Of a stretch of 64,000 bases of DNA, positions 8,165-61,010 are shown piece after piece. A model generated the notes under the pieces. It was not told where the DNA came from. It made no database searches and saw only the letters and a program-made list of their open reading frames with translations. This stretch comes from Rhynchobatus australiae. Lineage: Eukaryota. Position 1 is the first letter of the stretch. Every line of letters starts with the position of its first letter. The stretch lies in contig JAUZTB010000098.1 in assembly GCA_034780895.1 (NCBI GenBank), forward strand, positions 89,426,175-89,490,174. The letters run 5' to 3'. The translations under genes and the position numbers were made by a program.

Positions 8165-8338
8165 AATAAAAAAATACTTGATGTTGAAAATCTGAAATAA
8201 AAACAGAAAATGCTCGAAGCACTCAGCAGTCAGGCAGCATTTGTGGAAAGAGAAGTAGAGTTAATGTTTCACATTGAAGACTTTAATATGAAACTATGAC
8301 AGTGGTTCTCTTTTGCACAGATGCTGCCTGACCTGCTA
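8165..8338. mobile_element. Penelope-derived short repeat, inverted pair
   Basis: aatctgaaataaaaacagaaaatgct...actcagcagtcaggcagcatttgtgg followed by its reverse complement cacagatgctgcctgacctgct. Confidence 0.75.
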
Positions 8339-8472
8339 TATAGAACAGTACAGCATAAGAACAGGTCCTTTGGCCCACAATGACTGTGCCAACCATGATA
8401 CCAATCTCAACCAGTCCCATATGCCTATACAAAGTCCACATCCCTCTATTCCCTGCCTGTTCATGTGTCTAT
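8339..8472 (-). mobile_element. HER_LINE/CR1 (or HE1 SINE) 3' end
   Basis: atagaacagtacagcataagaacaggtcctttggcccacaatg is the reverse complement of the elasmobranch CR1 terminus; it interrupts the preceding repeat. Confidence 0.8.
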
Positions 8473-9339
8473 ACTTTCTATTAATTTCATATTTTTATTT
8501 TTTCTGAATTCATGGGACAAGATCACTTCTCTACCTTAAAAAAAAGGAATATACATTGCATGGAGGTAGGAAGAGTAGGGCCTACTGTATATAGCTAATT
8601 ACTAGTTCTCTAAATTGCAACTTCAAAGATCAATAGACCTTAGGCTTTGAAGTTCATATTTCATTTGCAAAACATATGCACTCAAAGGAGAAATATTGCA
8701 AGGACACTTCTTAACAAGATTCAACATACAAAATGGAGCAGAGAAGAAACTAACAGTCTGCCTCAAATCCAATCTGTGAACATGTTGGATAAGTTTCATG
8801 GGTCATTTTCTCCCTTAGTTAAACTGGCCACAATGGTGCCACTCGAATACTTTCATAAAACATTATTCTAACATTTTCAACAAAAACAGTATATTGCTGG
8901 GAAAACTCAGCAGCTCAACCTAATCTGTGGGGAGAGCTATATCTCAGATTGATGACTATTCACTCTACGACATTGTATCTTATAAGCTCCCACACTTTCT
9001 AAAGCTTTAAGAGTGAAATAAGGTAATGAGCAACTGGTCCTCCCTTATTAATTTTAAGTAAACTGGAGGTCATTGTAATCTGGAACATTTAGAAAAAAAA
9101 GTTACCTAATAACAATGTACAATTGTAATTCTGCACAATTTGGTCACCAGAAAATACAACAAAACTTGAGTATGTTTTTATTATTTTGTTTGAAAATTCT
9201 ATGTTCTTCTGATTTTAAAAAGCCAATTATTACAATAATCATTATAATATTTGTCTAGCAGTGTCTTTCATTTTATTTCAGGAATAGAGAGTTTTAACAC
9301 ATCGTGAATGATGACTTGGAAACTACTTAGCTAAAAGCA

Positions 9340-10230
9340 AAATATAGACTTTAACACCAGGGGCATGATCAAGAGATTTGCAAGGGATGCAAAAATTAGG
9401 CAGGTGGTTGACAGTGAGGAGGAAAGCTTTAGAACACAAGAAGATAAAGGTTAGTTGGGCAGGGAAGTGGCAAATAGAAGTCAATCTAGGGAAGTGCAAG
9501 ATAATGTATTCAGGGAGATGCAACAAAGCAAGAGAATGGACAATAATGAGGGGATATTATGATGTGTGTAGTAATGGGGAGATCTTAGAGTCCATGTCCA
9601 CAAATCCTCAAAGATTGCAGGACAGGTCAAGAGGGTGGTTGAAGAAGGTATGTGGGTTGCTTTCCTTTATTTGGTAAAACTGTTTCCAACACCTGTCATG
9701 CCAGGACTTGTCTCTTCACAGTTCTGGTCACGACATTATGGGAAAGACATGCCTGCAATGGAGAGGATATTATGTATGAGGATGTAGCCAGGAATAGAAA
9801 ATGTTCACCATGTGGAAATATTGGAAGGGCTAGGGCTATTTTCTTTGGAACAGAGGATGTTGAAGGGTAGACATAATTGAGGAGCATGAAATTGTAAGGG
9901 GCCTGGATAAGAATAATGGGAGGAACAAAGGAGACTAAAAGCTCAGAGCATAAATTTAAAGTCTTAGGCTGAAGGATTAGAGAAGAAATGAGGAAAAACC
10001 TTTTCACCTAGAAGGTGGTAGAGATCTGGAGCTCTGCATGAAAGGGTGATAGAAGCAGAAATTGTCACAACATTTAAGAAATACTTAGATGTGTATTTGA
10101 GGAACCATGACCTGCAGGGCTGTGAGTCAAATTCTGGAAGATGGGATTAGGCTGGGAAACCTTTTTTAATTGGCACAGAAATGATAGGCTGCATGACCTC
10201 CTCTTGTGTTGTAAGTTTTGTATGATTTCT
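9340..10230 (+). mobile_element. CR1 LINE, 5'-truncated (RT C-terminus to 3' end)
   Basis: ORF 9378-9677 contains VSWAGKWQIEVNLGKCKIMYSGR (CR1 WAxxWQMEFNxxKC motif); ends in cctcctcttgtgttgtaagttttgtatgatt tail. Confidence 0.85.
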
Positions 10231-10234
10231 ATAA

Positions 10235-10505
10235 AGATACTACAGACACTGGAAATCTGAAATAAATGTGGGAAAAATTGGAAATGGTCAACAGGTCAGG
10301 TTCCCTCAGTTCTGAGAAAGGGTCACTGACCCAAGATGTTGTTGGTTTCTCCTTCTACAGATGCTGCTTGACTAGCTGAGTTTTTCCAGCATTCTCTGTT
10401 TTTGTTTCAGATTCCAGCATCTGCAGTTTTATTTGTTTTCCAGGTTAGGCATCTTGTCTGGAGAGAGAATCAGAGTTAATGCTTCAATCCATCTGAACTA
10501 GAAAA
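10235..10505. mobile_element. Penelope-derived short repeat: plus-strand copy nested within a minus-strand copy
   Basis: ctggaaatctgaaataaa...caggtcagg | cagttctgagaaagggtcactgaccc...cagatgctgcttgactagctgag...cagattccagcatctgcag | caggttaggcatct...gagttaatg. Confidence 0.75.
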
Positions 10506-11710
10506 GAAATTTTTTAAAAAAGTTTTAATTTACAGAGAAAAGGGGGAGGCGCAGGAAATAAAGAAAAAGATGTTAGAGTGGAGACAAGAAATCTTGAAAA
10601 ATACTAGTAGTAAAAGTGCCAGGCTGAAAAGAGTGACAAAGGCCATAATTTGCTATTGGAATAATGGTGAGGTTATTGGTGTCTGTCTTTTTTTATAGTC
10701 AAATGCCACACTAAATTCAAAGTAGGGCAATGTGAGATTAAGCTCAGAAATCTAAAAGATGCCATTTGAATTGTGCCACTCTTCCACTAACTTTGCTTAC
10801 AATTGAAATACTTTCAATAGTGTGAAGATGCTGTATTTTCATGGTAGTCAGAAGCAAAATGAATGTACCATCTCATTTAAATTGACTTCAACCGACCTGA
10901 AACAATCTTGACCCTGACACCCCAGTCATTGACTCAACCCAAATCTCAAGATTACAGTTTGCAAGCACCACCCCCAAGCCACTCTCCATTACCCGCCATT
11001 CCATGATGTTCAACAACCCATGATGACTTGGCTTTCTCCACTACCAAGCTGGTTTTATGCACGTTTCCCAATATGGAGGTATTTCTATATTTATCCTTTG
11101 GAACCAAATCTACCGAATGAATACATGATCTGCCATGGTTATTCTGCCAGTTATTCTCCTTTGTCATGTATAAAACCTCATAAATGGTTTGCAGTACTAT
11201 TTTGATAGAGCTTTGATTGATCCTGTTTACAAAGTTTCATAACTATTTGTACTACATGACAGCTATGCTCAAAATCACTTCAACTATTAGTAAAGTATAA
11301 TTTTGCATGAATATCCTTTGCTATGATAATCTGCTCATCTCATTCATTGTTAATACAAACTGCTATTACACCTCTGTGAAAGAACCTTTAAAATTGCAAA
11401 TGCAAGCTCTGGAAGTGGTCCATCCATAATTGTAATTCCTTTCACAGTAATACAAATCACAACCTTTGGTTACTGTGTCCATCTCTGACCGTCAATATTT
11501 TTTTAAAATTTAAGTAGGCTGTGTGTAGTGTGAAAAAGCACTTCACAATTTATTCTTGTGTAAAAATCTACAAATGTTCCCTACTGATTTTCAAAAAAAA
11601 TATACAAGTATGTTGCTGAACATTCAGTATTATCAATAAACATTACAAATACAATAGAGGCATTTAAGAGGCTCTTAACATGAATATGCAGAGAACGGAG
11701 GGATATGGAC

Positions 11711-12120
11711 AGGATCCAAAGAGGCTGCAGAGGGTTGTAGACTCAGCCAGCTCCATCACAGGCATAACCCTCCCCACTGTCGTGGACATCTTCAAGAGGC
11801 AGTGCCTCAAGAAGGCCACATCCATCATTAAGGACCTTCACCACCCAAGACATGCTCTCTTCACGTTACTACCATTGTGGAGGTGGTACAGGAACCTGAA
11901 GACCCAAACTCAACATTTCAGAAACAGCTCTTCCCCTCTGCCATCAGATTTCTGAACAGTCCATGAACCCATGAATGCTACCTCATTATCCTTCTTTTGC
12001 ACTACTTATTTATTTTTGTAACTTGTAGTAATTTTTATGCCTTTACGTCTTGCACTGTACTGCTGCTGCAAAACAACAAGTTTCATGACATATGCCAGTG
12101 CTAATAAACATGATTATGAT
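11711..12120 (+). mobile_element. Rex1/Babar LINE 3' fragment
   Basis: ORF 11680-11955: KRLQRVVDSASSITGITLP...CLKKATSIIKDLHHPRHALFTLLP; tail gcaaaacaacaagtttcatgaca...aataaacatgattatgat. Confidence 0.88.
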
Positions 12121-12904
12121 GGTGCTCAAGAAAACAAGGCAAATTGTAACATCAGTCTTGTCAGTATAAAAGGGAATCTTCAACATATTTTTTAGTCTTA
12201 TGGCATAATTTGAGCATGCAAGCTGAACATTTATTATTTAAACCATTGTACATGTGGCAACAAATAGATTTATTAAAGAAAATCTTTAACTACTAAACAT
12301 TAACTTTGCAAAGTGCATGTTGTACACTTAATTATATTAAGCAAAAGCTTTCAAAATTGAACTACTGGCTTTCCTGTCAGTAGTACTAGTTTCCTTTTAC
12401 AATTGTTGACTTTTAATAGTACATCTAATTACTGCAAAGTCTTCTGACATAAATAAAGCACATTCCTCATGCAATGTTTAAAGACAGTCCAGTCTGAACA
12501 TGAATGCCACATTTATATTCCATCTTTACAGTTGTTATATCCTAAATCTGAAAGACAAACAAATCACAAATGGAGTGTTCATGTGCAGGTAGGTAATTGC
12601 AAGTCAATGGTTCAGGTTTCAGGTGAGGGATTCCTGGTGCACTGAGTGCTTCTTTTCTAGAGATTTTTTCAGGCTTGGTACAACATGTACATGGACAGAA
12701 AATGGATTGTATCATCTAACCACATCATGTATCAGAATATATTTCCGCCACAGGTTTCAAAAGACAAACTAAAGAACACAAACAAGTTTTTACCCAGGCA
12801 GGCAAAAGCATATTTAGCTAATTGCTTTTTGCCAAATTATTATCCACCTTGATTGAAAGAAGAAAATACCATAAACAACTTCAAAGGAATGACATGAGAA
12901 TCAA

Positions 12905-13040
12905 AAAGAAAACTGCAGATGCAGGAAATCTAAAACGAACACGAAGATGAAGGATCTTCCACCTGAAATGTTGTCTCTGCTTTTCTGCCCCCACATTTAG
13001 ACTGACCTGCTGAGTATTTCTACCATTTTCTGTTTCAGAG
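12905..13040. mobile_element. Penelope-derived short repeat with inverted 5' piece
   Basis: aactgcagatgcaggaaatct (minus-sense tail) joined to gatgaagg...cctgaaatgtt...ctgacctgctgagtatttctaccattttctgttt (plus sense). Confidence 0.7.
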
Positions 13041-14609
13041 GAATGACATCACGACTAGGACAACATGCACATTTTAATTAAGTTTCAACATTTTGTTGAG
13101 TTTCATCATCTTTCAAGAAAGCTCTGAAAGATTCCGTGATTCAGTCAAATATCATGCTATGGTTACTGAGCCTGTCAGATCAGAAGATCCAATGGTTTGT
13201 TTGTCAGGCTGAATTATATTAAATCAGTCACAGGAGCAGCCAGACTTAGAAATGGATTTGATATCCCTGGGCTAGGAAAGTACTCAAGAAAAACTAACCC
13301 CACTTATAGTGCCAATATCAAGCCACCAACAACTGAAATTCATATTTTAGTAAATTCAAATATGAACTTTAGTAGACTCCCAATGAAACCAAAGGAATCA
13401 AATTAATTTAACCAGAAATTTTCAAGAAAACCATTTTATTCATTTTAATGAAAAATATCATGCAATCCCAATGTGCCTTCCATAATGAACCTTATTCTGA
13501 TTCTCAAATTACCAGAGAGTTGCCAATTTGGGATGATCAATATGAGAGTTTGTAAAAGATACCAACTGATTCATTTGCATTTCTTGCTGCTTTACAATGA
13601 ACATAATTCTACAGATTACAGATCTATAATAAATATTTTGAATAAACTTAATCTCATATGACACTTCTCATGGTCAAACACTGCTTCCTTCTTAACATCT
13701 ACTTAATTTCTTTACCACTCACCAATTTGTGATCTCTCCATGTTTCTGTTTATCTTTGAAACTTGTTTGCCCTCTGCACGTCCCTTATGCTTCAGTCATT
13801 GTGATATTTGAATCTTTGCTTTCAGCTATTTCTCAATCCTCTCCATTATTTTTTCTTTGTCTCACCTTCACCATGCATCTTGAATTGGAGAGGTGGCAGT
13901 GACTACATTTGTTAAAGAAGGGATGCAGGCATTTCTAGTCCATCGCTGAAACTAAAGCAGTTACCTCTTCCATAAAAAATGAAGGATAGCCTGGTTGTAT
14001 GGCAACATCCAATACTTGCATATGTAGTCCTAGTCTCCAAAATTGATGTGATAAAGCAACACTTTTGTGCATTGCAATCTGCTGGTAGCCACAGGGTAGT
14101 TCCAGTAACACTTGATGCTATCAGACTGGAATGGTAGAAAACCATTACAGCAGGTTTAAAAAAATATGTTGAGAATAATCACAGACAATCGTTTGGGAAT
14201 TAGAGAGGACTCAGCTGTTCACTATTCTTTGTTCAAAGTTGGGAAGATGAAGCAATTTGGTAAGCAAGAGTTCAAACTGCTGTGGTGCAACACAATACCA
14301 GTAACCTTACTAACAGTGTGAGTGCCAACCCTAAAAGCAATCAGCTTTTTGACTTCAGTCAATGAGATCTTGGCATTGATGCAGGTGCATGGGGCATTAC
14401 ATATGAGAAAATATAACATGTGGATAGAAGTTTGATTGATGGTCTGGAAACATATTTTTAAGACTGAATAATTATTGCTTTCAATGAAGAAGATTTGTAA
14501 GTAATGTGCATTACGTCTGTGTTGAGTCGACTTTTGCTCTGGATTTGGGCTACAAGACAGGAAACAAAGGAACAAAATCAGCAAATGTAGGGATGAGAGG
14601 AGAGGAATT

Positions 14610-14960: not shown

Positions 14961-14969
14961 GATTGTATA

Positions 14970-15640
14970 ACACAGAGTCAGAGATTAATATAGGCCCTTC
15001 GGCCCATCGAGTCTATGTGACCAGGTGCCCACCCAGCTAGTCCCAATTTCCTGTGTTCGGCCCATATCCCTCTAAGCCCTGCACAATGCGATCCTATCCA
15101 AGTGCTTCTTAAGTGATACTATTGTACCTGCCTCAACCACTTCCTCTGGCAGCTTATTCCATATACTCATCACCCTCTGTGCAAAAGAAGTTGCCCCTCA
15201 GGTCCCTTTTATGTCTTTCTCCTTTCACCCTAAATCGATGCCCCCCAGTTTTGGACTCCCCTACCCTGGGGAAAAGACTTTTACCATCCACCTTAGCTAT
15301 CCGTCTCATAATTTTAAACATTTATATAAGGTCGCCCCTAATTCTCCTGCCTTCCGAGGAATAAAGACCCAGCCTGGCCAACTTCTCCCTATAACTCAGA
15401 CCCTCTTGTCCTGGCAACATCCTCGTAAATCTTTTCCGCACTCTTTCAAGTTTAACCACATCTTTCCTTTAATACGGTGACCAAAACTGTACACAGTACT
15501 CCAAGTGTGGCCTCACCAATGACTTATACAACTGCAACATAATGTTCAAACTCTTATACTCACTGCCCTAACTGATGAAGGCCAGCATACTAAATGCCTT
15601 TTTTGCCACCCTGTCTACCTGTGACGCCCCTTTCAATGAA
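14970..15640 (-). mobile_element. HER_LINE/CR1 3' fragment
   Basis: ggcccttcggcccatcgagtc terminus; ccaaaactgtacacagtactccaagtgtggcctcaccaa is antisense LVRPHLEYCVQFW. Confidence 0.9.

Positions 15641-19356: not shown

Positions 19357-19358
<2 letters not shown>

Positions 19359-19396
<38 letters not shown>
19359..19396. repeat. (GT)19 microsatellite
   Basis: Direct read of 19 perfect GT units. Confidence 0.98.
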
Positions 19397-19400
<4 letters not shown>

Positions 19401-31449: not shown

Positions 31450-31910
31450 CCAAAGAACCAAAGAACCAAAGAACCAAAGAACACAGCACAGTACAGCACA
31501 GGAACAGGATCTTTGGCCCACCAGGTCTGTGCTAACCAGGATGCCAATCTAACTAATCCCATCTGCCAGCACATGGTCCGTATCCCTCAATTCCCAGCCT
31601 GTTCATGTGTCTATGCTTCTTAAACATGCTATGGCATCTGCTTCCACCACTTCCCCTGGCAGTGCGTTCCAGGCACCTTCTACTCTGTGTTTAAAAAAAA
31701 CCTGCCTCACACATCTTCTTTAAACTTTACGTCTCATATGCCCTCTAGTATTTGACACTTCCACCCGAGCAAAAAGACTCTGACTACCTACCCTATCTGT
31801 ACCAGTCATTATTTAATATACTTATATCAGGTTGCCCCTCAGCCTCCAATGTCACAGAGAAAACAATCCAAGTTTGTCCAACCTTTCCTCATAGCTAATA
31901 CACTCCCATC
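31450..31910 (-). mobile_element. HER_LINE/CR1 3' fragment with octamer tail
   Basis: (CCAAAGAA)x4 at 31450-31481, then cagtacagcacaggaacaggatctttggccca and antisense CR1 ORF2 C-terminus. Confidence 0.9.
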
Positions 31911-32899: not shown

Positions 32900-33025
32900 A
32901 CATTGTCCCGATGCAGTCTTGACCCAAAACATCGACTATCCCTTTGCCTCTACAAATTCTGCTGAACCCGCTGGGTTCCTCCAGCAGATTGTTCTTGCTC
33001 CAGATTCCAGCATCTTGTGTCTCTT
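32900..33025 (+). mobile_element. Penelope-derived short repeat with decayed hammerhead-like motif
   Basis: gtcccgatgcagtcttgacccaaaacatcgac...ccgctgggttcctccagcag...cagattccagcatc. Confidence 0.75.
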
Positions 33026-33240
33026 AACTACCAGTCTTTCCTTGTCTGTCATTTTTATATGCTGGTAAGCAATTCAGATTTCAGATCAATTGAAATTAGT
33101 GCAGGTCCATACAGTAACCAGGATTGCTTTGTAATGTAAAATGTTAATATTCCACCAATCTAAGAACTATTATTATATCCTCATAACCAAACAGGACTTC
33201 AACTATCCATCAGCCTCAAGCAGACTAAGAATCATTTAAA

Positions 33241-33430
33241 TGGAGACACAAGAGACTGCAGATGCTGGAATCTGGACCAACAAACAAGATGCTGGAGNNN
33301 NNNNNNNNNNNNNNNNNNNNNNNNNNNNNNNNNNNNNNNNNNNNNNNNNNNNNNNNNNNNNNNNNNNNNNNNNNNNNCTCCACAGATGCTGCCTGACCCA
33401 CTGAGTTCCTCCAGCACCTTGTTTGTTGCT
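33241..33430. mobile_element. Penelope-derived short repeat, inverted pair flanking an assembly gap
   Basis: caacaaacaagatgctggag [80 N] ctccacagatgctgcctgacccactgagttcctccagcaccttgtttgttg; the arms are near reverse complements. Confidence 0.85.
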
Positions 33431-35599
33431 AATGATGAGTTACGCTAATACCTGGCAGGGCTCAGCTATTCAGCAGTGAGATAACAATGAAACTATTAGG
33501 AGATTTGCAGCAGAAACTGAATGAATGAATATAGTTGTCTCAAAGGGAAAGCAAATTATGGGAGGTCTTTTGCAGGCCTGAAGAACAATACACCATCTGA
33601 ATCCTAACAATGACACAATCTCCCTTCAGTCTTGGAATCAAACCAGCACAGTCACTTCCAACTCATTCTAAATTCAGGGTTGTCTTGCTTTCTGAATACT
33701 TGCCCATGAATCCCCTTAAGTCTCTTTTAATCACCTTTAATCCAATTTTGAATCCTGCCTTAGTGAACTCCATCCATGAATCAGCAAGTTCCACAAATTC
33801 AAGAACTCTGCCTGAACAAATTTTCTTACTTTCCACCTAAATCTCCTGCAATTGTTCTTCTATTTATTGATGATTGTTTTCCTTGTAACTAGCTTATCCT
33901 ATTCTATCAAAATATTAAATATTCAAACAGTAATCTGCAGATCAATCTTTCTTTGTACCCTGCAGTATTGTGGGGAATCTGAACTGTACCTTTAATAAAG
34001 GCCATATTATACTGGAAACCACAGGTCCTGCAAGAAAATCATTGTCAAGAAAATTGACTTTAAAAATGAGATCATATTACTTATTTAAAGGGCACTTTGG
34101 CCCAAATCTTATCATCATGGCCCAGTCAATGCTGGGTGTGGAAGAGGATATTGTTGACTATAGAACATCTTGTAATTTGTTTTGTTTATAAATTGCCCTT
34201 AAGCTGCATGTTTTGTGGACCAGCCTGTGGCATAAGCCTACAAATCAGCTGCGAGCAGTACATTTTGTTGGCAGGTGATGTGACTGTTGATGGTGGGGAT
34301 CAATCACAGGGTGGGAAAAGATGTTGTGCATTCATTGGTGGGGGTGGTTGGGTGGGTCGGGGAGGGAAGAAGATGGTGGACATGGAGCAAACTACAATTC
34401 AGGATATAGATTGTTGTGAAGTTCTAATTGCAGGGTTTGCGAGGAGAAGAACAATCACAGTGAGAGTTGGGGTGGTAACTGATGGGCTAGTTGTTAGAGG
34501 AAATAATACTCTTCTTCTTGGTCCACATGTACTCCTATAAAACCACCTCATGGAGTCTTGCTTTCTTGCTTTTGTTCACTTGCTGCATTTTGAGGCCCTT
34601 GTGGAAATGTGATTGTCAGGTTTAAAGCAGATTGGGTTGCTGTTTCAGATTTTTTGCCTTTTTAACCTTACACAAATCCATTCTTCTCTTTGTAAAATAT
34701 CTGGCTGTACTTACCCTCCTGTTGGTCACCATGGTAATTGATTTAAAACATTTTCCAGCTGGATGAATCTTTACCAGCCTCCAAATGGGCATTCAACACA
34801 GTGATCATCATTAAGGTAAGGTTCACCTCATATTAAAAATGTACAATGAGAAGTTTTGAGCAGGAACTAAGTGAAAAAGGACTGAGAAAGAGCAAGATTA
34901 GAAATGCACATGAATTATAATCGAACATGAGACCAGAACCAGTGAAAAACTGTGAATGTGTTGCTGGGAAGCAATTTCTATTTTCTCCCAACAAGCACCC
35001 TCCTAAGAATTTCAAGAGGTGATCAGAAAGAACAAAAGATTAGAAAAAGCTTACATTACTACTTAGTCACTGTATCCAACTACACAAGGCATATTAAATA
35101 CTCCTCCATGCTTAATATGGACAACACTCAAGACCCAAATGTTAAACTGTAACAATATGCTATCTCAAAACAAGATGGCTTCAGTCAGACGCAGCTGCCA
35201 AAAACACTGTAAAACCATTGCACTTTGGAAAGCTGAAGAAATTCTTTTGATGTCATTGATATTTCAGCATTGATGCAGCAAATGTTTCTCACTTGTACTG
35301 GATTTTATAATAAATTCCCTTTCTTTCTCTTCTCATTCAATACAGGCGATGTGGACTGTAGCTAAAGTCTCATCAACATGGTTAAGGATAATTTCCTTCC
35401 CACCCATGCAAGAGACTTGCCTCTTTCTACAGAGATGTAGTGCAGTGTTCAAACAGTGTGGCATTGGACTCAAAATCTATGTCCTAATCCAAGACAATAT
35501 TCCATCAACTTGCATCATTGCCTCATGCCTTTCAAATTAAATGTTAAATAAAGATGAAAATTATGACCAAATTTGAATGTAATTAAGAATCGGTCTTAA

Positions 35600-37562: not shown

Positions 37563-37920
37563 TAGAACATAGAACATGCTTCGTACAGCACAGGAACAGC
37601 CCTTCGGCCCACGATGTGGGTGCCGAACACAATGCTGAATTAATCTCTTCTGCCTGCACATGATCCACATCCCTCCATTCCCTGCATATTCATGTGCCTC
37701 TCAGTCTCTTAAACGCCACTATCGTATCTGCCTCCACCGCCACCCCTGGCAGCCCGTTCCAGGCACCCACCACTCTCTGTGTAAAAACCTTGCCCCACAC
37801 ATCCCCTTTAAACTTTCTCCCTCTCGCTTTAAATGCATGTCCTCTAGTAGTTGAAAGTTCCACCCTGAGAGAAAAAATTCTGACTGCCCACCCTATCTAT
37901 GCCTCTCATAATTTTAAAAA
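37563..37920 (-). mobile_element. HER_LINE/CR1 3' fragment
   Basis: tagaacatagaac...gtacagcacaggaacagcccttcggcccacgatg terminus and cccctggcagcccgttccaggcacccaccactctctgtgtaaaa. Confidence 0.9.
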
Positions 37921-38294
37921 CCTATTTACTAGCCCCAGATCTCCATATCTCCTCATGTAATTCTGAGTGACCTTAGTCAAATAGCAATTTCCATTTTAAA
38001 TGATTAATTGGATCTTAATGAAGGAGAATCATTTCCTCAACTGCACCTTCGCTGTGTAAAATCACTGCTGTCCGTGAGATATTAAATCAACTTACCTGGA
38101 TTCATTTCTGGTGCAGGTGAATTTGTGGGCTTGTAAAAATCAGGTCTATCACAGAAACTTCCTTGTGCTTACTCCCAATCCTCTCGTCCCACTAATCACC
38201 ACTAAGGAAATGCCTGAGAACAGGAATCTTCCTGCAGGGAGCAGATCATATCAGTGGGTGGAAATCAAGAACTGATAGCCATTTGATGCATTCT

Positions 38295-38625
38295 GTGCAG
38301 AAAAACACACTGCTGGAGGAACTCAGTAGGTCGAGCAGCATCTGTGGAAGGAAAAGAAGTGCCAACCTTTCGGGTTGAAACCCTGCATCAGGACTGAGAT
38401 TGGAGAGGTGACATGGCCAGTATAAAGAGGAGAAGGGGAGTGGTAAGACAGGAGTCCGAGGTGATTAGTGAACTGAGGAGGCAGTGAATGATAGATGGAG
38501 GCAGATAAAGAGAGAGAAATAAAAATTGAGAGGCAGACGAAGTGGGGGGAGGGGTGGTGTGAGGGGAGAGTGAAGGTTGGAGACAGTTGCTGGAGGAAGA
38601 TAAGCAGGAACACAAAGAGCGACCA
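38295..38625 (-). mobile_element. Penelope-like element terminal region with hammerhead-like motif
   Basis: Minus strand: long pyrimidine-rich tract, then agtcCTGATGCAgggtttcaacccGAAAggttggc...ccacagatgctgctcgacctactgagttcctccagca. Confidence 0.8.
38361..38395 (-). ncRNA. Minimal type I hammerhead-ribozyme-like motif (variant core, activity doubtful)
   Basis: GUC-CUGAUG(C)A-GGGUU/UC/AACCC-GAAA-GGUU-GGC: both core boxes in order, perfect helix II, 3-bp helix I. Confidence 0.6.
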
Positions 38626-42434: not shown

Positions 42435-42830
42435 GTTTGGGGAGTATGCCTTATGAAAACAGGTGGAGTGAACTCAGCCTTTTCTCCTTGGAGCGACGGA
42501 GGATGAGAGGTGACCTGATAGAAGTGTATAAGATGATGAGAGGCATTGATCGTGTGGATGGTCAGAGGCTTTTCCCCAGAGCTGAAACGGTTGTCACAAG
42601 AGAACACAGGTTTAAGGTGCTGGGGAGTAGGTACAGAGGAGATGTCAGGGGTAAGTTTTTTGCCCAGAGAGTGGTGAGTGCCTGGAATGGGCTGCCAGCA
42701 AGAGGATAGGTACATGAGCTTAGAAAAATAGAGGGTTAGGGGTAAGCCTAGTAATTTCTAAGGTAGGGACTTGTACGGCACAACTTTGTGGGCCGAAGGG
42801 CTTGTATGTGCTGTAGGTTTTCTGTTCCTA
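42435..42830 (+). mobile_element. HER_LINE/CR1 3' fragment
   Basis: ORF 42344-42709: LSLFSLERRRMRGDLIEVYKMMRGIDRVD...FFAQRVVSAWNGLP; terminus gtgggccgaagggcttgtatgtgctgta. Confidence 0.93.
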
Positions 42831-45044: not shown

Positions 45045-45262
45045 ATTAACTGGTCGTGGCCCTTGCACTTGATTGGTCTACCTGCACTGCACTTTCTCTG
45101 TAGCTACAACACTATATTCTGCATACTGTTTTCTTTTTTACTACCTCAATGTATTTAGGAATGGCACAATCTGCCTGGATAGCATGCAAACAAAAGCTTT
45201 TCAATGTATCGCGGTACACGTGACTCTAATAAACCAACAATAACAATAATAATAATAACAAG
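45045..45262 (+). mobile_element. Rex1/Babar 3' UTR with (AAT/AAC)n tail
   Basis: tctacctgcactgcactttctctgta...ggtacacgtgactctaataaaccaacaataacaataataataat; reverse complement of the tail at 58255-58440. Confidence 0.8.
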
Positions 45263-46434: not shown

Positions 46435-46545
46435 CACCCACTGTTGTAATGAACTGATTTGTATGAACAGTATACAAGACAAGTTTTACACTGTACCTTG
46501 GTACATGTGACAATAATAAACCAATTTACCAATATATTTACCAAT
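46435..46545 (+). mobile_element. Rex1/Babar 3' tail
   Basis: tgatttgtatgaacagtatacaagacaagttttacactgtaccttggtacatgtgacaataataaaccaat. Confidence 0.8.
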
Positions 46546-47525: not shown

Positions 47526-47584
47526 GAGTACCCAGGACTTCTGAGTACCCCCATGACCTCAACATCCTCAGTATCATCCTAAAT

Positions 47585-50500: not shown

Positions 50501-52621
50501 TTTTCATTTTTCCATTGATTATTTTCAGAATTTCCTGTTTTTATTTTAGTTGTCCAGCATCTGCAGCTTTTTTTTGGTTTTTTGATATAAAACATTAGTT
50601 ATTGGAAAATGAAGGCGTAAAATAAAAGTACAAAAGATATTGAAGGCAAGGAAAAGTTACAGTACATCTAAAATATAAACCACAATTGCAATCCAAGTAT
50701 ATATTGGAGTATTCTCAAATGATCATTATAACAAGTATAACATACCTGAGGGAATGATAATCCACGCATGACTCTTTTTCAGAACTAGGGAGCTTGATAA
50801 GTAGTAATTCTGTTTTAGAACACCCATTAAAAATTCTTAAACACAGTGTAACATAATCATGCTTTTAACAGAAAGAATAGTTCGTAAATGCCTCAACTTT
50901 TCATCAGTTCACTGATTTCTGAAGATTATGCAGAGGATTGTAAAGCATTGTTCCCAGTGGAGGAGAAGGGAATCACTTACGGCAAAATGTGGATTTCCAC
51001 TTTTAATCATATATGCATGCCAGAAGTTGTTGTCAGATTTCCTCCATTATAATGGTCAGTGCAGATTACTTCACAATTAGTTTTCACTACAAATTCTAGG
51101 CTGATTAAGTAGCAGTAATGATGAAATAATTTAAATTTGTCCCAAATGACAATAAGTAAAACAATACAGAGACTTTTCTATTAATTAATTTACTCTTCAC
51201 TGGGAGTTCAAAAAGCAGGAAAATTAAGATACTCTAGACACACTGTAGTAAAATGTGTCTGGCATTGGCAGCTTTAACTCATGCACCAACTACAGATAAG
51301 ATCAGAGCAAACTTTAGTTTTTTTTAAATGAAGACTTAGCCAAATTTAATAAAAAAAAGGTTGCTCTTATATTTTTGTTGGCTTCCTGCACTGCCATTTG
51401 TTAGCAACCACAGCATTTATCTTAAACCAGACTCATTCAATCTTTATGAGTGCTAGATTTTTGTAAGGATTATGAAACAGCAGGAATAATAAAAAAAATC
51501 ACTGAATTTTAATGAAAGTTAATGAAATAGACCTTTGCTGAACTTAATAGAATTTAATGAAAGAGATATTTGCTCAGTTCATTGTTTAATCTTCCTCAAC
51601 TTGTGAGGTAGAAAACAAATTACCCAAAATTCCATAGAACCATACCTATGCCAAAGACTACATGTATTAGGAAAGCTTTAACACAGGAAAATTGTGACAA
51701 AGCAGCATAATATAAGGAAATTATAATTTTCTCTCTCCATCTCTAATTACAGACTGACCTTTCTAATACGATAAATGTTTGGTCTAAATATATACCACTT
51801 GTTAAAAGCAGAGTTTAAGTCTGTCATTAAAATTTAAATAGGAACCAAATATATCATCAGCATAAAGTTCTGTGGTGTTTGTACAACCAGTAGCAGACAT
51901 CTGGATTTGCTGTGTTCTTTCACATAGAAAGTATACCCACACAGAGGCATTTACCATAAACTTGTTGCTGAACCCTTATTAAACTGTCAGATTTTCTTGC
52001 TCTGTAGGTTTTTCTAGCTTCTGTTTAAATTACGTAAATAGTTCTGGAAAACCAGTGTCTGTGTCCCAGGGATGTATGATTCAAAAAGACAGAAATAGCA
52101 TTGTAAGCACAGGAAACCTGTCAGGACCCAACTGAGGGAAACAAGTTAGCCTAGTCCAGACACTATTTTTGCTGCTGTCTAGTGGAGTTAAATACAGTCT
52201 CAATAGTTGCTCCATACTACACAATAGAANNNNNNNNNNNNNNNNNNNNNNNNNNNNNNNNNNNNNNNNNCTTTAACCATTTCTCAAAAGACAAGAAAAC
52301 AAAAATAGAGGGTGAAAAAAATTTAAGAATGTTGTTAAGGAGTTCAGAATGACCCTCTGGCAGTATGTTACCAATGAAATGTAAACTTATAGCTGTTCTG
52401 AATGAAGAGGAAGATTGTTTTTTTGTCAGGTCAGGACTGGGGTAGCCCACCATGGATCTGAATTCCCTCGGCTGTAATTGACTGTACACTGTGTTAGCAA
52501 CTCTCCTTTGGCACAAGTTCACAAGATACTCATACAGATCAAGCAATTTTTTGAGATGATGCGTGAAACGTATCATCCAGGCAGGGAAATACTTCTGAAT
52601 AGCCTTAGGCCAATGGCCTAC

Positions 52622-52749
52622 CTCAATGTAGTCCTTGGCATGACCCCAATCTCTCTTGGCATCCAGATTGCCCAAACTAAAACAATCCAGCTGTCTGAGG
52701 TGAATCTTAGCCACTGACCGACTAATTTTCCGAGTTACGAAATTAGCCC
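52622..52749 (-). CDS. GMDS: GDP-mannose 4,6-dehydratase, internal coding exon (equivalent to human exon 7)
   Basis: Translates (G)[42 protein letters not shown], matching the GMDS/Gmd segment with the RDWGHAKDY motif. Flanked by tttgtttcAG acceptor (phase 1) and GAG|GTaggc donor (phase 0); 128 bp. Confidence 0.96.
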
Positions 52750-52779
52750 CTGAAACAAAGATAACAGATAACATCAGTA
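52750..52779 (-). promoter_or_regulatory. 3' splice site, pyrimidine tract and putative branch point of the GMDS exon
   Basis: Minus strand reads TACTGATgttatctgttatctttgtttCAG; TACTGAT fits YNYTRAY with the branch A about 25 nt upstream of the exon. Confidence 0.75.
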
Positions 52780-54042: not shown

Positions 54043-54057
54043 GCCGCCATCTGCTGT
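54043..54057 (-). promoter_or_regulatory. CTCF-like motif (overlapping a YY1-like GCCGCCAT on the plus strand)
   Basis: Minus strand ACAGCAGATGGCGGC versus CTCF core CCAGCAGRKGGCRS; retains a CpG in non-repeat sequence. Motif match only. Confidence 0.4.
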
Positions 54058-57000
54058 TAAACTGGGTGATCTTCAACACTCCCGCAGAGAATTGCCTCAG
54101 CTGTGGCTCTGAACAGCCGGGAAGCAGAAAGGATGGACACTGAGAATGTCATGGCTGACTGAACAGACTAGTGAGATCAGAGAGATTAAACCTAATTTGC
54201 TTACTAAGGACTGCCAAAATCAACACTATTTAACAGCAGGTACTCAAAACTTATAGGTAAATTTTCTGAAAAGTATTAATTTCTCAGAAAAAATACTTGG
54301 CTTTGTAAATTTTTGGTATTTTATTTTCCTTTTTCTTAAATTTATAATAATTATATAAAAGTTATTTGCTGAAGTACCGTTAAAATCAAGATAGGGTTTC
54401 TTTTTCAAAGACTGGCAATTAGCCATACTACAATTGAGTTTGGAAAAAAATACTGGCAGGCAGGCATTTTACAACATAAATGTGTCCTTTGTGCAATTTT
54501 ATTATAAACTCAAAAAACCATCCAAAGGCTTTTGATCTAAGACCCAGTTTGACAGCAAATGTATGCAAGACAGATGATACTACAGCAAGCCAAGTGGATT
54601 TCCTACTGCTTAAACATCTTATTTTGCCTTAATGACACAATTTTGCTGTAGATGAGCTCTCCAATTCAAAATGTGGCAAATACTAACAATAAAGGATCTG
54701 CAAGCATGTCTTGTAAAGTTTCCACCCTCTCAGCTCCTATAATTGGCAAGTCAAAGAACCAAAAGCAATGTGGTATATTCTACTGTGCTTTATTATTCAC
54801 TCTGAATTAACCTAACAGGGCATCTTAGTTCTGCAGTCACAATTTGACATTGAACAGATTTCCCACAAAGAAAGAAGGAAAATCCAGCAATGTCATTGAC
54901 AAAATGAATTTCTGCAAACATCTAAATATATTTTTAAATTAAGACCCATCTGCTCTCACGATTCACCAATGAAGTGAACAAACAAAAGGAACAATCAGTG
55001 CAATTTCTTTACAATTGCACATTAATTTAATATTCAATTAAAATTTGCATTTAACTTCTAATTTAAGACTGTCACTTAGAAGTCCTGTGAGCAATTCCCA
55101 GAATACTGGTAAAATCTAGGAATTATATCAACAAAATAAGGTTTAGATTATTCAGTCACTGTAAATCAATGCCCTACTTTGGAAAGAGTATTTGCTTCTA
55201 TATCGTGCATACATGGTCATTGATTTACATTTTCACCAAAAATGGATATATCTGCAAGTCTGAGGAAGATTTAAACACTGGAAACAGAAGCACAACAAAA
55301 GATCAGGGAATTAGTATTAGGAGGGTCAAAGGGCACTTTTGATCGAAATTCAAATGCATAGGACTTCTAAGATGTTTTGAAATCATTCACTAATTTCGGT
55401 TTATAAGCACGGCACTTCAATTGCCATATTTAAGAACATTCATTCTTGTTAGAGTAAGAATATTACAAATAATATTCATTATCATAATTATTGGAACATC
55501 CCACCTTGCACTATTCTATCTATTCTTTGAAAACCACTAAAAGGCCTCNNNNNNNNNNNNNNNNNNNNNTTAAATGGTTACCACTTATCAACTACTGCCT
55601 CTCATTTCCAAACTGCTATCAGCCTCTCCTCAAAATCCTACCCTTGTTAACCTCTGTTAACCACCACCCAACCTCTGACTTCCTTTTCGTTTCCAATATG
55701 GTTGTATATGCTATCATCTCTTAATAGTGCCTGCTTTCCCTGAACAGTCACTAATATCCTGTCAATCAGATTTCTAGTACTCCAACAGTACCAAGGCTTC
55801 CAAAATAAATGGAAATGCAAATTAACATCTTTTCTGATTTGATTATTGCTTATAACTATGTAGAGAAAAACTAGCCATTTATATGCAGTGAATGTACTGT
55901 GAGAAGCAGTTCAACTTTTTGGTAAGGGTCAGTAGAAATGCTGGTCCCTGCTGTTAATTATGGCTAACTTGACATCACCACCCAAATCTGATATTGTTAA
56001 TGCATTGTAGGAGAGGGCAAGCTCACCACACATGAATCTGTCAATTATGAGCAAGTTCCAGTTTTCAGATTCTGGGAGAGAAGTCTGAGTACTACCACCT
56101 CACTGAGTCTTTGGGGAGTTTGCACTGCTCGTGAATCTGTGTGCATCTATTCAGCTTTATGTTCTTGGCTGAAGGAAAAACAGATGAAGTCCTTTTTCTT
56201 TGTGTTGAGAGCATCACTAACTTCTTCAATATTGTGCTAGAGCAGAAAACTGATATTTAGCATGGATCACCTGCTACCTGGAAGGATTCAGTAGACAGTA
56301 AGTTCAGCTGACAATGATTTTGACATCAATGAACAGAGCATGGGTACGTAGTTGGACCTCTGCCTGCAGATAGTCGCAGGTCAATATCACCACCGGCTTT
56401 GAAAACCTTAGCCTCCAAGGATATTCTTTGGAGTAGTTGAGATAGGAGCACAGGACTCTGAACACACTTAGGAATGTGATTAGTGGATCTGAGCACTTGC
56501 TGCCTTCAATCTCAAAGTCCATGGATATATCTGTGTTGTGTCTGATCACTACTCTGTAGGTCCACTTCATGCAGCACACCAAGATGGACAACTGCCACAG
56601 AGTACCCATGTTAAAATAATGGAGTGCAATGCCAGAATGATTCTGAATGAACAACAATTTATGTGAAAAAGGCAACTTAAATTGTCCTGTAAACATTACA
56701 CAAGCCTACCTCACCACTCCTTGCACATTCAATATGACAAACTTGTGTCCTTCTGAATTTTCAGTGCTGTCCATTTCTTATTGGTTGTGAACAACAAACT
56801 AATGCTGTTACTTCTTGAATAATTGTGTCAAGGGACTGTTCTCTGGACTGCAAATGTCTGCAGAAAGTTCTGTACAGGCAGTCTGTAAGCAGCCTTTGAA
56901 TAAAGAGGATGCACTGTATTTTGCAGTCCTTGAGCTTCATGTGTACATGACTGCACACTCTGCAAATGGACTTTATTCAATGTTGAGAATCTATAGAGAC

Positions 57001-58254
57001 CACAAACCTCGCACTGGTGACAAGGGCAGAATAGCAAAGGACCACTGTAGTCACAAGTCACAAGGTGATTTTGCATTGGCAGGGTGAGTGTGAGAACATT
57101 TATCACTTGAGGGGAGTTGAGGTATGAACCCAAGCACAAGGAGGAAAGGTACTTTATGCAGAATTGATTGTAAGATCAGCTACATAAGCATTGGAGCAGT
57201 AAATAATCCAAAATAATGGACCAGTCCCAAACTGAAAGATACTGACAAAACATGGGGACTTTTCATTTCAGGTGTCTAAAGGATGAAGAGGATTTTCTGG
57301 ACAATAAGCTTATTGAAATAGAGGGTGAAGTGGAAAATACTTGTATTGAAACTATACACAAATGCAAGAAGGCAATTTCATATTGAGAAATTCAATGTCC
57401 CATTTAGTGATAATAATAGAGATGTTTCAAAACCATTTCATTCCAGTGCCATCAGAAGTGAAAGTAATAATTTCAGAATTCATAAGCAGGGATGAGGGGA
57501 GATAATTAGCAACCACATGGTTGATCAGAGAAACCTGCCATTGCATAATAACATTGGTGGGTTTTTAGATCATATGCTGAGAGATAGTTTGGCATTGGAG
57601 TTATGGCTGACCATATCCAAGTTATTAAGTATTCAAACTCTAACATTCAAACAGGCATGCAGGATACCTATGGACTTTAAAAATGCAAATGAATTTAATC
57701 CAGGGAAGCATACCTGTGAAAACACTGAATGCAAACTCATGGCATGAGAAAAGATGGGACCTCCAACTCAGTCTAAGTCGCAGGAGCACAAATGGTGCGT
57801 CCAGAAACTAAGGTTGGATATCCTGCTACCTTTGCCACAGGAACTCTCAGCTCAAGCTTGTCATTTCAGAGTTGCTTTAGTTGTTGCAGGCAAAGGCACA
57901 CCAGCTCTGTGTGCAAGATTGGGCAGAACACAGTAAACCAAAGTTGTGAGTCAAGCAAAATCCCAAAGGAAGGGAAACAATTACAGTAGAAAACCACAAA
58001 AATATTGTTATATTACATTGAAATGAATGAGCAATTTCAATGTCATATAAAAATATGGGCTGAAAAATATATATGGCATTGATGATGCAAAAAAACTTTC
58101 AAAATTAAAGGAAGGGTCAATATTCAAGCTATTGATATGGATATATTCATGGCTGTAGATTGTTCCATAGTGGGAAGGGTCAAATATAATCAGAAGTTTA
58201 GCCATTAGTGAGAATCTCTGTAAGTTTAAGAATATATTCTTGAATTGATTTATT

Positions 58255-59148
58255 ACTGAATTGTTTTATTATTGTCACTTGTACTGACGTACAGTGAAAA
58301 ACTTGCCTTGCATACCATTCATACAGATCAATTCATTACACAGTGCATTGAGGTAGCACAAGATAAAACAATACAGAATGCAGAGTAAAGAGTCACAATT
58401 ACAAAGAAAGTGCAGTGCAGATAGACAATGAGGTGCAAGGTCATAATGAGGTAGATTGTGAAGTCAAGCGTCCATCTTATCGTAGTAGACAACCATTCAA
58501 TAGTCTCATAACAGCAGGATAGAAGCTATCCTTGAGCCTGGTGGTACATGCGTTCAGGCTTTTGTCTCTTCTGCCTGATGGGATAGGGGAGAAGAGAGAA
58601 TGTCCCAGGTGGGTGGGATCTTTGATTATGCTGGCTGCTTCAGCAAGGCAGCGAGAAGTATAGACAGAGTCCATGGAGGGGAGGCTGGTTTCCATGATGT
58701 GTTAAGCTGTGTCTACAAGGCTCTGCATTTTCTTGTGGTCCCAGGCAGAGCAGTTGCCATACCAAGCCATGATGCATCCAAATATGATGCTTTCTATGAT
58801 GCATTGATAAAAGTTGGTGAGTGTCAAAGGGGATATGGCAAATTTCTTTAGCTTCCTGAGGAAGTAGAGGCACTGGTGAGCTTTCTTGGCTGTGGCATCT
58901 ATGTGGTTAGACAAGGACAGACTATTGGTGATGTTCAACCCTAGCAAGTTGAAGCTCTCAACCCTCTCAACCTCAGCATCATTGATGTAGACAGGTGCAC
59001 GTGTACCGCCCCCCTTCCTGAAGTCAATGACCAGTTCTTTTGTTTTGCTGACATTGAGGGAAAGGTTGTTGTCATGACACCACGTCACTAAGCTCCCTAT
59101 CTCTTTCCTATACTCCGACTCCTCATTATCTGAGATATGGCCCACTTT
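58255..59148 (-). mobile_element. Rex1/Babar LINE, 5'-truncated (~0.9 kb)
   Basis: ORF 58702-59232: WCHDNNLSLNVSKTKELVIDFRK...KKAHQCLYFLRKLKK...FYQCIIESI; frameshifted ORF 58477-58695 ASIIKDPTHLGHSLFSPIPSGRR; 3' UTR ends gtgacaataataaaac. Confidence 0.95.
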
Positions 59149-59999
59149 GTCTGCAGGTTCTAACTTCCAGGTTTGCAACTCGAGTGCTGATTGGGTGGAT
59201 TTACATGGGATGGGATAGATGGGTTTCCACACAGCAGCTTCCAGTGAGGGTGTGGGAGCTGGGCCAGTGCAGCACAGGTCCTAGGCTGCAGTACTGGAGG
59301 TCCTTCTGGAGGAGGCCTAGAAGAGGAATGATGTTGTGTGTCCCCCAAAGCCTGCCAACTTACCCTTCCTTACCTCCTGCCCCTCTCTGATGCAGCAACT
59401 GCTGTTGTCTCCCTAGCCTTGTTGTCCTCTTCCCATTCTTTGTCCTGACCAAGGTGTTCATGACTGGGTGCCCCCTGGTGACTCCAATAAGGATTCCAAT
59501 CATGAGACCCGTTTTAGATGACTTTACTTCAAAAAGACCCATTGTGCTTCACTGCCCTCTATACAGCTCCAGTATTATGGATGTGAAGGGTGAGTATCCC
59601 TTTAAGTGTGAACATCCCTTTAAGTAGCAATGACATTATCATCAACTTGTGTTTATTCCCAAGCAGCTGGTTGTCATTGGGAGGGAGCATCAACTGAAGG
59701 ACTGGCCATTAAAATGCCATGCAGAGTTTTTAATGAGTGATGGCTGGTATTTTATGCAGCAATCAGTTATTTAACAAGCTTCCAGGCAACCAAACTCTAG
59801 AAATGGTTTCATTTTTTCTGAAGAAGCTGCTGTAGGAAGCCTAAGCTAATGCTTCAGTTCAAGGTCCCATCTGGGCCACCACTTTACAGCCTAATGTGTT
59901 CACCCCCTCCTACCCTGACAAATGTTCCTTTTCTAATATCATGCTGATGTTGTGTACAAATGTTCAACTTATGTCTGCTTTTTGCCAGTTGGAGAACTA

Positions 60000-60245
60000 G
60001 TACGGAAATCTGAAAAATGAAATAAGAACAGAAAGTGCTAGAAACACTCTGCTGGTCGGGCAGCATGCTGAGGGAAATCAGCGGGTGATGCTGAGCGGCC
60101 ACCTTAACTCTTCCAGCAGGTTGTTTGTTGCTCTAGATTCCAGCATCTGCAGTCCCTTGTGTCTTGAATATTTCAGATCTGTTTCTCTTTCCACAGATGC
60201 TGCCTGACCTGCTGAGTGTTTCCAGCATTTTCTGTGTTTTTTTTA
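60000..60245. mobile_element. Penelope-derived short repeats: inverted pair with a third copy nested
   Basis: acagaaagtgctagaaacactctgctggtcgggcagcat ... agattccagcatctgcagtc ... ccacagatgctgcctgacctgctgagtgtttccagcattttctgt. Confidence 0.8.
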
Positions 60246-60259
60246 TCCCAGAGTAATGG

Positions 60260-60307
60260 AAACATAGAAACATAGAACACTACAGCACAGTACAGACCCT
60301 TCAGCCT
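60260..60307 (-). mobile_element. HER_LINE/CR1 3' terminus running into a gap
   Basis: aacatagaaacatagaacactacagcacagtacagacccttcagcc. Confidence 0.85.
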
Positions 60308-60407
60308 NNNNNNNNNNNNNNNNNNNNNNNNNNNNNNNNNNNNNNNNNNNNNNNNNNNNNNNNNNNNNNNNNNNNNNNNNNNNNNNNNNNNNNNNNNNNN
60401 NNNNNNN

Positions 60408-60477
60408 ACTCTCGCTCTCCCTGAGCAGTGATCTATTGTACGTAAAATCTTCTGAATTGCTCAGGGAGAGCGAGAGT
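60408..60477. repeat. Perfect 20-bp inverted repeat with 30-nt spacer
   Basis: ACTCTCGCTCTCCCTGAGCA (60408-60427) and TGCTCAGGGAGAGCGAGAGT (60458-60477). Confidence 0.95.
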
Positions 60478-60863
60478 TCACTCATACAAATGGAGACGGA
60501 TTTTGAACTATTCCAAAAAACAAAAATCCCTGAATTGCTCATTTGTAAACCTTCCACATTTATAATAATTTGTTTTTACTCATCACGTTTCTCCTCCTTG
60601 GCACTTTTCAGGTAAACCTGAGAACAGAGAAGTCTTCACCCAAAATGGAATCATCGTTATGGATGTAAATAATCTCACTAAGGAGTTAAGAATCCTGACC
60701 ACTCAGTTACAGAGTACCTTGGTCACAGAAAATGGTAAGACTTATTTATAGGTTGTTTATTTACTTTTTTTGTTATAAGTGGAGGGATAGCCTAATAAGG
60801 AAGACAATAGTCCAAAAAATGACCAATGAGTAAATTAATTAAATAATAGTAAATTAAACCAAT

Positions 60864-61010
60864 GAGTCTGATGAAAGCTGATTAAACCGAAATGTTAACA
60901 CTGTTTCCCTCTCTGCAGATGCTTCTGACTTGCTTATTATTATCATTATTATTTTCTGTTTTCTCATACATTTTCTTTTCAGATTTCCAGCACTTAACAA
61001 TCTTCAGCTT
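60864..61010 (+). mobile_element. Penelope-derived short repeat with hammerhead core boxes
   Basis: gagtCTGATGAaagctgattaaaccGAAAtgttaac...ctgcagatgcttctgacttgct...ttcagatttccagca. Confidence 0.7.

What the first reader, a model, noticed from the sequence alone, without database searches (positions are those of the whole stretch)
8165..61010. Dispersed family of short non-coding elements sharing the hammerhead-like head (at least six motif remnants)
Seen: the same layout (core box 1, hairpin, GAAA-like box, then CAGATGCTGCCTGACCTGCTGAG...TTCCAGCATCTGCAG) recurs at ~8258-8295(-), 10307-10340(+; helix II GGGTC/ACT/GACCC), 12946-12972(+), 32905-32936(+; helix I GTC/GAC), 38361-38395(-) and 60864-60900(+; exact CTGATGA and GAAA). 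Helix II differs in sequence between 10320 and 38372 yet pairs in both, and several core defects look like CpG decay (CGAAACGT to CAAAACAT or GAAATGT). Inference: a high-copy, mostly ORF-less family of Penelope terminal repeats or retrozyme-like non-autonomous elements, roughly one per 10 kb here.
Basis: partly seen in the sequence, partly recalled or inferred. Interest (0 to 1): 0.7.

Follow-up and report, generated by a model that had tools for sequence, protein, structure and literature searches.

The report
Penelope retrotransposon ends with minimal hammerhead
The repeat is real and is the terminal piece of a known class of jumping gene (Penelope-like elements) that carries a tiny, predicted self-cutting RNA motif, now decayed in every copy in this window; the one fresh point is that many short copies start right at that motif with an extra G, which likely means they were copied from the capped, uncut start of the element's RNA.

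Summary
The six remnants exist; a profile finds 18 fragments in the window and none in reversed sequence, and 2.5 per 10 kb in 100 other stretches. They are not an ORF-less family of their own. The motif is the terminal repeat (minimal type I hammerhead plus about 100 nt) of a Penelope-like element, likely Neptune clade. It follows the GIY-YIG end in 24 of 30 loci, flanks RT-EN on both sides in one complete copy, and shows the optional ~33-nt tail and head-to-head inversions. No window copy is intact. This class is published (PMC4209133), and this scan noted it three times elsewhere in this genome. Two extras were not found in my searches. First, 5' ends pile up at the ribozyme's 5' edge (51 of 105 at risk), not at the cleavage site, with a fourfold excess of an extra G, likely a cap copy. 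Second, endonuclease-linked subfamilies carry CUGAUGCA instead of CUGANGAH. RNA evidence gave no verdict.

The parts
4253..4355 (-). Decayed C-terminal end of the GIY-YIG endonuclease of an old-subfamily element
   Evidence: nhmmer E 2.6e-14; first profile only E 0.41
3941..4098 (-).
   Evidence: 71 bits
8173..8284 (-). Old-subfamily copy starting about 9 nt into the motif; left arm of a head-to-head pair; no box 1
8278..8337 (+). Inverted right arm of the pair, cut short at its 3' end
8873..8948 (-). Tail fragment
10233..10324 (-). Inverted arm upstream of the 10303 copy
10303..10442 (+). Long-tail copy starting 7 nt before C3; helix II intact, both core boxes and helix I broken
10441..10487 (-). 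Weak fragment
   Evidence: E 0.002
12946..13035 (+). Short-tail copy starting at +2; a short inverted tail piece lies at 12905-12942
32905..33027 (+). CUGAUGCA-type copy starting at -3; helix I intact, core and helix II broken
33241..33436 (.). Head-to-head pair of tails (33241-33297 minus, 33378-33436 plus) with N between them
38288..38490 (-). Best-kept copy: CUGAUGCA core, helix II and GAAA intact, position 15.2 changed; runs on upstream into the 3' UTR (about 245 nt)
50515..50571 (+). Tail fragment
60010..60252 (.). Cluster of three tail fragments (60010-60066 minus, 60087-60169 plus, 60174-60252 plus)
60867..61011 (+). Old-subfamily copy starting at -1; exact CTGATGA and GAAA, helices I and II broken
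61076..61127 (-). Tail fragment

Best explanation
The copies are decayed terminal repeats (minimal hammerhead plus tail) of several subfamilies of a Penelope-like retrotransposon, likely of the Neptune clade, and are predicted to be inert here. Shown: the element reads repeat - RT - GIY-YIG - 3' UTR - repeat, and the long tail runs on into the ORF start. Inferred mechanism: the element's protein nicks target DNA and primes reverse transcription inside the RNA at two sites about 33 nt apart, as shown in vitro for the anole element, which gives short and long tails and, when both strands are primed, head-to-head pairs. Priming at the 3' repeat gives ordinary 5'-truncated copies. Priming at the first repeat likely runs off the RNA's 5' end after 100-140 nt; this would explain the pile-up of starts at the ribozyme's 5' edge and the extra G as a copy of the cap. 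The template of those copies was therefore likely not cut by the ribozyme. After insertion the copies decay without visible selection on the core.
For: Motif downstream of GIY-YIG on the same strand in 24 of 30 loci, upstream same strand in 1 of 30; 48 of 58 endonuclease ends in a wider set. Complete copy L198 with two direct repeats around RT-EN; L164 and L165 RT-EN-repeat. Tail continues into the ORF in L171, and L178 starts at the tail. 3' ends bimodal: 54 and 92 of 169 in two clusters; 28 head-to-head pairs, 22 of them one long plus one short tail. These match PLE hallmarks in PMC8557442 and PMC11167929. Majority core fits the min-HHR consensus of PMC4209133. 5' ends: 51 of 105 at risk end in -9..+6 (0.032 per nt) against 11 of 145 around the cleavage site (0.005 per nt). 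Base before A(-4): C 6830, G 572, A+T 700; 144 G expected; 27 of 29 G copies have unrelated flank; in 2 of 3 copies whose target duplication abuts the G, the G is not in the target.
Against: No RNA 5' end, cleavage or expression was shown. G is also common one base further in (12 of 23 copies that start at -3), about half of them in inverted pairs where microhomology can supply it, so the G excess is not confined to one position. Only 7 of 28 G-start copies have a detectable target duplication, and in 1 of the 3 abutting cases the G may come from the target. The hazard is also raised at +6..+21 and near -100..-130 (0.013-0.014 per nt). Covariation is thin: one clear compensatory change between subfamilies; pairs with two-sided change 3 against 3.3 shuffled. 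Neptune rests on a linker motif, not on a tree. Pfam did not recognise the decayed EN pieces.
Confidence: 0.88

Rival explanations
1. The short 100-140-nt form is a self-propagating non-autonomous element (SINE- or retrozyme-like) that is transcribed from its own start and borrows the PLE protein.
For: About a third of copies (51 of 165) begin at the same place; some are bounded by 11-15-nt target duplications; one locus elsewhere holds a 76-nt tandem with two whole heads; Li et al. 2026 derive retrozymes from PLE repeats.
Against: All four tail clusters contain long copies (27, 31, 18 and 14 training copies); both core types sit behind endonuclease ends; no tandem arrays of the unit in the window; short copies lack the ORF sequence past the tail, which the anole protein needs (first 172 nt of the ORF).
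Confidence: 0.08
2. PLE ends as above, but the 5' pile-up comes from RT stalling or template switching at the ribozyme fold, helped by helix I microhomology, and the extra G from ordinary terminal addition, not from a capped start.
For: G also frequent at the next position; many starts are junctions of inverted arms with short microhomology; no RNA data.
Against: Stalling would be expected at the 3' side of the fold, where the hazard is low (expectation from general knowledge); most G-start copies are solo (5 of 27 flagged inverted); the start lies in a YCAGTY sequence that fits the initiator consensus (recalled), and D. virilis Penelope has an internal Inr/DPE promoter in its repeat.
Confidence: 0.3
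3. The dispersed copies are working ribozymes that process host intronic RNA (the window holds a GDP-mannose dehydratase exon).
For: 609 copies genome-wide match an intact-core pattern exactly; core positions change a little less than tail positions, 9.7% against 13.2%.
Against: 0 intact motifs in the window and 0 in 100 sampled stretches; the 9.7/13.2 gap is inflated by picking copies on the head and by subfamily mixing in the tail; single min-HHRs did not cleave in vitro.
Confidence: 0.03

Closest known systems
Minimal hammerheads (min-HHR) in pLTRs of metazoan Penelope-like elements (Cervera and De la Pena 2014, PMC4209133)
   Same: Type I fold, 3-4-bp helix I, extra base before G10.1, G10.1-C11.1, palindromic 15.2/16.2 with no loop, mostly single copies from truncated elements, some in opposite-strand pairs.
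   Different: No cartilaginous fish in the alignment part I read (supplement file 2, part 2 of 3); 31 of 87 sampled heads have C where the consensus CUGANGAH has A9; copy number here is in the hundreds of thousands of fragments (extrapolated) against 4,000-9,000 descriptor hits in coelacanth and Xenopus, counted by a different method.
Neptune-clade EN+ PLEs (Craig et al. 2021, PMC8557442)
   Same: RT then C-terminal GIY-YIG, C-x2-5-C-x2-C linker, heavy 5' truncation, inverted 5' copy, 30-40-bp tail at one end.
   Different: No tree was built; insertion into microsatellites was not tested; Nematis shares the linker.
Poseidon element of Anolis (PAc; Frangieh et al. 2024, PMC11167929)
   Same: Two internal priming sites that define the tail; hammerhead upstream of them; uncut RNA is the main template.
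   Different: In PAc the ORF starts inside the hammerhead; here the first long frame starts after the tail. That paper reports no capped start or extra G (passage search).
Non-LTR retrozymes (Li et al. 2026, bioRxiv 10.64898/2026.07.22.740005)
   Same: Short, non-coding, PLE-repeat-derived, type I hammerhead; their survey includes one chondrichthyan.
   Different: Defined by tandem units each with a whole hammerhead; the window copies are single or inverted and decayed.

Membership tests
EN+ Penelope-like element | Single ORF with RT and C-terminal GIY-YIG endonuclease | tested here: met
   RT, thumb and EN in order in L198, L199, L164, L165; RT piece 30% identical to an RVT_1 + GIY-YIG protein, E 2e-26; all copies seen are broken
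EN+ Penelope-like element | Direct pseudo-LTRs flanking the ORF | tested here: met
   L198: repeats at 3715-3847 and 7118-7240 of the turned locus, 83% identical; one clear case
EN+ Penelope-like element | Optional 30-40-bp tail, often at one end only | tested here: met
   Bimodal 3' ends; 22 of 28 inverted pairs long+short; L178 starts at the tail
EN+ Penelope-like element | Inverted 5'-truncated copy next to the 5' end | tested here: met
   28 head-to-head against 3 tail-to-tail pairs; L153, L155, L162, L165
EN+ Penelope-like element | RT groups with PLEs in a phylogeny | not tested
Neptune clade | C-x2-5-C-x2-C linker before GIY-YIG | tested here: met
   Motif in 24 of 30 loci, any frame, CxxC of the EN also counted; clear linker examples listed
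Neptune clade | Clade placement by RT tree; microsatellite targeting | not tested
   Not run
min-HHR of PLEs | CUGANGAH and GAAA-N-palindrome-UH boxes in the family majority | tested here: met
   Met in 3 of 5 clusters; 609 exact genome matches, control 0
min-HHR of PLEs | A9 in the CUGAUGCA subfamilies | tested here: inconclusive
   C in 28 of 29 and 28 of 42 members of two clusters; can be read as A9 to C or as an inserted base between G8 and A9
min-HHR of PLEs | Helices I and II with compensatory changes | tested here: inconclusive
   83.9% of cells pair; one C-G/U-A switch between subfamilies; two-sided pairs not above shuffles
min-HHR of PLEs | Intact motif in the window copies | tested here: not met
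   0 of 6 cited copies
min-HHR of PLEs | Self-cleavage as dimer or with protein | not testable with these tools
   Needs an in vitro assay
Non-LTR retrozyme | Tandem units, each with a whole type I hammerhead | tested here: not met
   No such array in the window; one 76-nt tandem elsewhere
Non-LTR retrozyme | Unit-length linear or circular RNA | not testable with these tools
   Only assembled contigs of runs guessed to be RNA were offered

The most novel reading that the evidence does not exclude
In this PLE the hammerhead is the very first thing in a capped transcript (start at about A-4, in an initiator-like sequence), so cleavage would act as a decapping switch and not as the maker of the transposition template. 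A third of the genomic copies are run-off cDNAs of the uncut leader and record the start site as a fossil, and a lineage with a CUGAUGCA core, outside the published consensus, spread to a large share of copies, either as a new active core variant or because the ribozyme is dispensable.
Probability: 0.5. Interest if true: 0.55.

Novelty: new member of a known kind. Interest (0 to 1): 0.33.

Why it matters
The class is known, so the window itself is ordinary. What the hammerhead does in Penelope-like elements is open: it was proposed to cut the template (PMC4209133), yet the anole protein uses uncut RNA in vitro (PMC11167929). If the 5' pile-up and extra G hold, genomic copies give in vivo support for uncut, capped templates and place the ribozyme at the start of the RNA, which can be tested by CAGE and a cleavage assay. 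The CUGAUGCA lineage is a natural test of whether the core must stay active.

Tried and rejected
Rfam scan: no hammerhead family up to E 5, only 5 chance hits; no tRNA head, so no tRNA-SINE. RNA: no RNA holder listed; contigs of four runs guessed to be RNA and one other run were laid twice; they hold the repeat but cannot show ends, strand or level, and I saw no splice-type or circular joint among the rows shown (15 of 55 and 15 of 38 joints); no verdict. A splice-acceptor reading of the pyrimidine-CAG before helix I: copies that start there share no common upstream exon by eye. One search used a mis-registered helix II and is superseded. The 5'-end estimate is spoiled by inverted arms and is superseded. 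Pfam GIY-YIG search of the genome returned mostly another PLE family (6 of 7 hits on small contigs). Long 'open frames' were runs of N. Literature: searches found no paper on a shark or ray PLE hammerhead; 56 and 90 none on an A9 variant; 68 and 69 none on a cap-derived G in PLEs by title/abstract listing; the library lacks most subscription papers, and Repbase/Dfam could not be consulted. Scan notes with cap/start words: 0.
Full report
Setting. The window is G000:C98:89426175-89490174 of a 2.23-Gb genome. It holds one exon of a GDP-mannose 4,6-dehydratase gene near 52620-52750(-), so much of it is likely intron. That the animal is a shark or ray is my recall from the repeat's look, and earlier scan notes say the same; I did not test it. 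Positions below are counted from C3 of the hammerhead core unless window coordinates are given.

Observation. All six places hold the repeat. A profile from 29 genomic relatives of the 38361 copy finds 14 window hits and none in reversed controls. A second profile, retrained on sampled stretches, finds 18 fragments, about 11-12 loci. In 100 evenly picked 10-kb stretches of large contigs it finds 203 fragments (162 loci) in 819,674 readable letters; the 40 stretches not used in training gave 79 hits and 0 in reverse. That is 2.5 fragments per 10 kb (bootstrap 2.1-2.9), or roughly 550,000 fragments if extended to the genome (an extrapolation, with 18% of sampled letters masked). The helix II difference cited as compensation is CpG decay relative to the subfamily majority.

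What it is. The motif is the terminal repeat of a Penelope-like element. In 30 loci fetched by the end of a GIY-YIG domain (one is the query locus), the motif lies downstream on the same strand in 24, upstream on the same strand in 1, upstream inverted in 8 and downstream inverted in 4. In a wider set 48 of 58 endonuclease ends have it within 900 nt; 8 of the 10 misses contain N. L198 is a complete copy: repeat, RT, thumb, EN, repeat. In the same locus (L171) the long tail runs on into the ORF start, and L178 begins at the tail itself. In the window, the endonuclease end at 4253-4355(-) is followed by a seventh remnant at 3941-4098(-). 3' ends fall in two clusters about 33 nt apart (54 and 92 of 169), and 28 neighbouring pairs are head-to-head against 3 tail-to-tail, 22 of the 28 with one long and one short tail. 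These are the hallmarks listed in PMC8557442 (passages). A C-x2-5-C-x2-C linker points to Neptune; no tree was built.

The ribozyme. Clustering 156 heads on the tail alone gives 4-5 subfamilies, 10-20% diverged from their majority, each with helix I of 3-4 bp, the first box plus one base, a 4-bp helix II, GAAA, a CG palindrome without loop and GUC or GUU. This fits the min-HHR consensus of PMC4209133 (read: parts 1-2 of 4 and supplement file 2 part 2 of 3; file 1 not searchable). 609 genomic places match an intact pattern exactly, control 0, but 0 whole motifs were found in the window or the 100 stretches; 15 of 87 sampled heads keep the boxes alone. Covariation is thin. The innermost helix I pair switches C-G to U-A in the oldest subfamily (64 and 33 against 22 and 12; one event, not many). 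On 56 hand-picked best-scoring copies, 83.9% of cells pair and cells with two-sided change exceed shuffles (19 against 12.5, 5/500), but the number of such pairs does not (3 against 3.3). Core and tail positions decay at similar rates (9.7% and 13.2%).

Core variant. Two subfamilies read CUGAUGCA: 31 of 87 sampled heads, 17 of the 100 listed exact matches (counted by eye), and 21 of 40 readable heads behind endonuclease ends (a set biased to these subfamilies). The published consensus is CUGANGAH. It may be A9 changed to C, or a base inserted between G8 and A9. Searches found no paper on it. Activity is untested.

Where copies begin. With profiles extended 160 nt upstream, 51 of 105 copies at risk begin between -9 and +6 (0.032 per nt). 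The bin holding the cleavage site (+28) has 11 of 145 (0.005 per nt); other bins run 0.002-0.014. Genome-wide, the base before A(-4) is C in 6830, G in 572 and A or T in 700 matches; mutation plus random flank predicts 144 G. 27 of 29 G copies have unrelated sequence upstream, against 2 of 10 T copies; one of the two exceptions matched itself in the training set. 7 of 28 G-start copies have 11-15-nt target duplications (3 of 348 mismatched pairs), and in 2 of the 3 that abut the G, the G is absent from the target. [quoted passage not shown] Against this: G is also common one base further in (12 of 23 starts), partly through microhomology in inverted pairs, and no RNA end was seen.

Mechanism. 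Shown: anatomy, tails, inversions, pile-up, G excess, decay. Taken from the literature: internal priming at two sites on uncut RNA, both strands extended, cleavage not needed in vitro (PMC11167929, parts 1-2 of 4 and passages), and an internal promoter in the repeat of D. virilis Penelope (PMC2377424, passages and Discussion). Inferred: the RNA starts, capped, a few bases before the core; priming at the first tail runs off after 100-140 nt and leaves the short form; priming at the last tail leaves longer truncated copies. I put about 0.95 on the PLE identity and about 0.55 on the capped-start step.

Retrozyme reading. Li et al. 2026 (parts 1-3 of 5; supplements not seen) define retrozymes as tandem units and report them in one chondrichthyan. 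The window has no such array, and no subfamily lacks long members. One 76-nt tandem with two whole heads exists elsewhere. PMC6155905 was seen only as passages.

Verdict. A real, very abundant, decayed member of a known kind, already noted three times by this scan in the same genome. The start-site signature and the core variant were not found in my searches and are directly testable, which lifts the score modestly.

Noticed in passing
L316:1452-1620 (G000:C1, near 2828200): 76-nt unit, 2.3 tandem copies, giving two whole CUGAAGAA heads in a row ahead of a tail, in CpG-rich sequence; a possible dimer-competent, retrozyme-like array.
   Followed up: partly
L031-L033, L035-L037 (small contigs): A different PLE family with long open RT + GIY-YIG frames (595 aa to the stop in L032, L033) and its own minimal hammerhead at L032:2944; seen only on small contigs, so either young, horizontally acquired or contamination.
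   Followed up: partly
window 52620-52750 (-): Exon of GDP-mannose 4,6-dehydratase (Pfam E 7e-13; near-identical to a solved structure's chain).
   Followed up: yes
window 8342-8476, 15119-15366, 31485-31828, 37638-37928, 42479-42698: A second dispersed repeat family, likely 3' ends of a CR1-type LINE (recalled), in several copies.
   Followed up: no
window 58248-58779, 63499-64000, 45076-45243, 46445-46537: A third repeat family; the copy at 58705-59280(-) has an RT-like C-terminal frame with a PF09004 match, likely an old LINE.
   Followed up: no
repeat majority, just before helix I and about 20 nt after the cleavage site: Two pyrimidine-tract-plus-YAG sites that look like splice acceptors, the second followed by ATG; could be exonised in host transcripts. 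No splice joint seen in the rows shown.
   Followed up: partly
repeat majority, cleavage site: The site sits in a 6-nt palindrome in both young and old subfamilies (GTCGAC, GTTAAC), three positions changing together; the other family at L032 lacks it.
   Followed up: no
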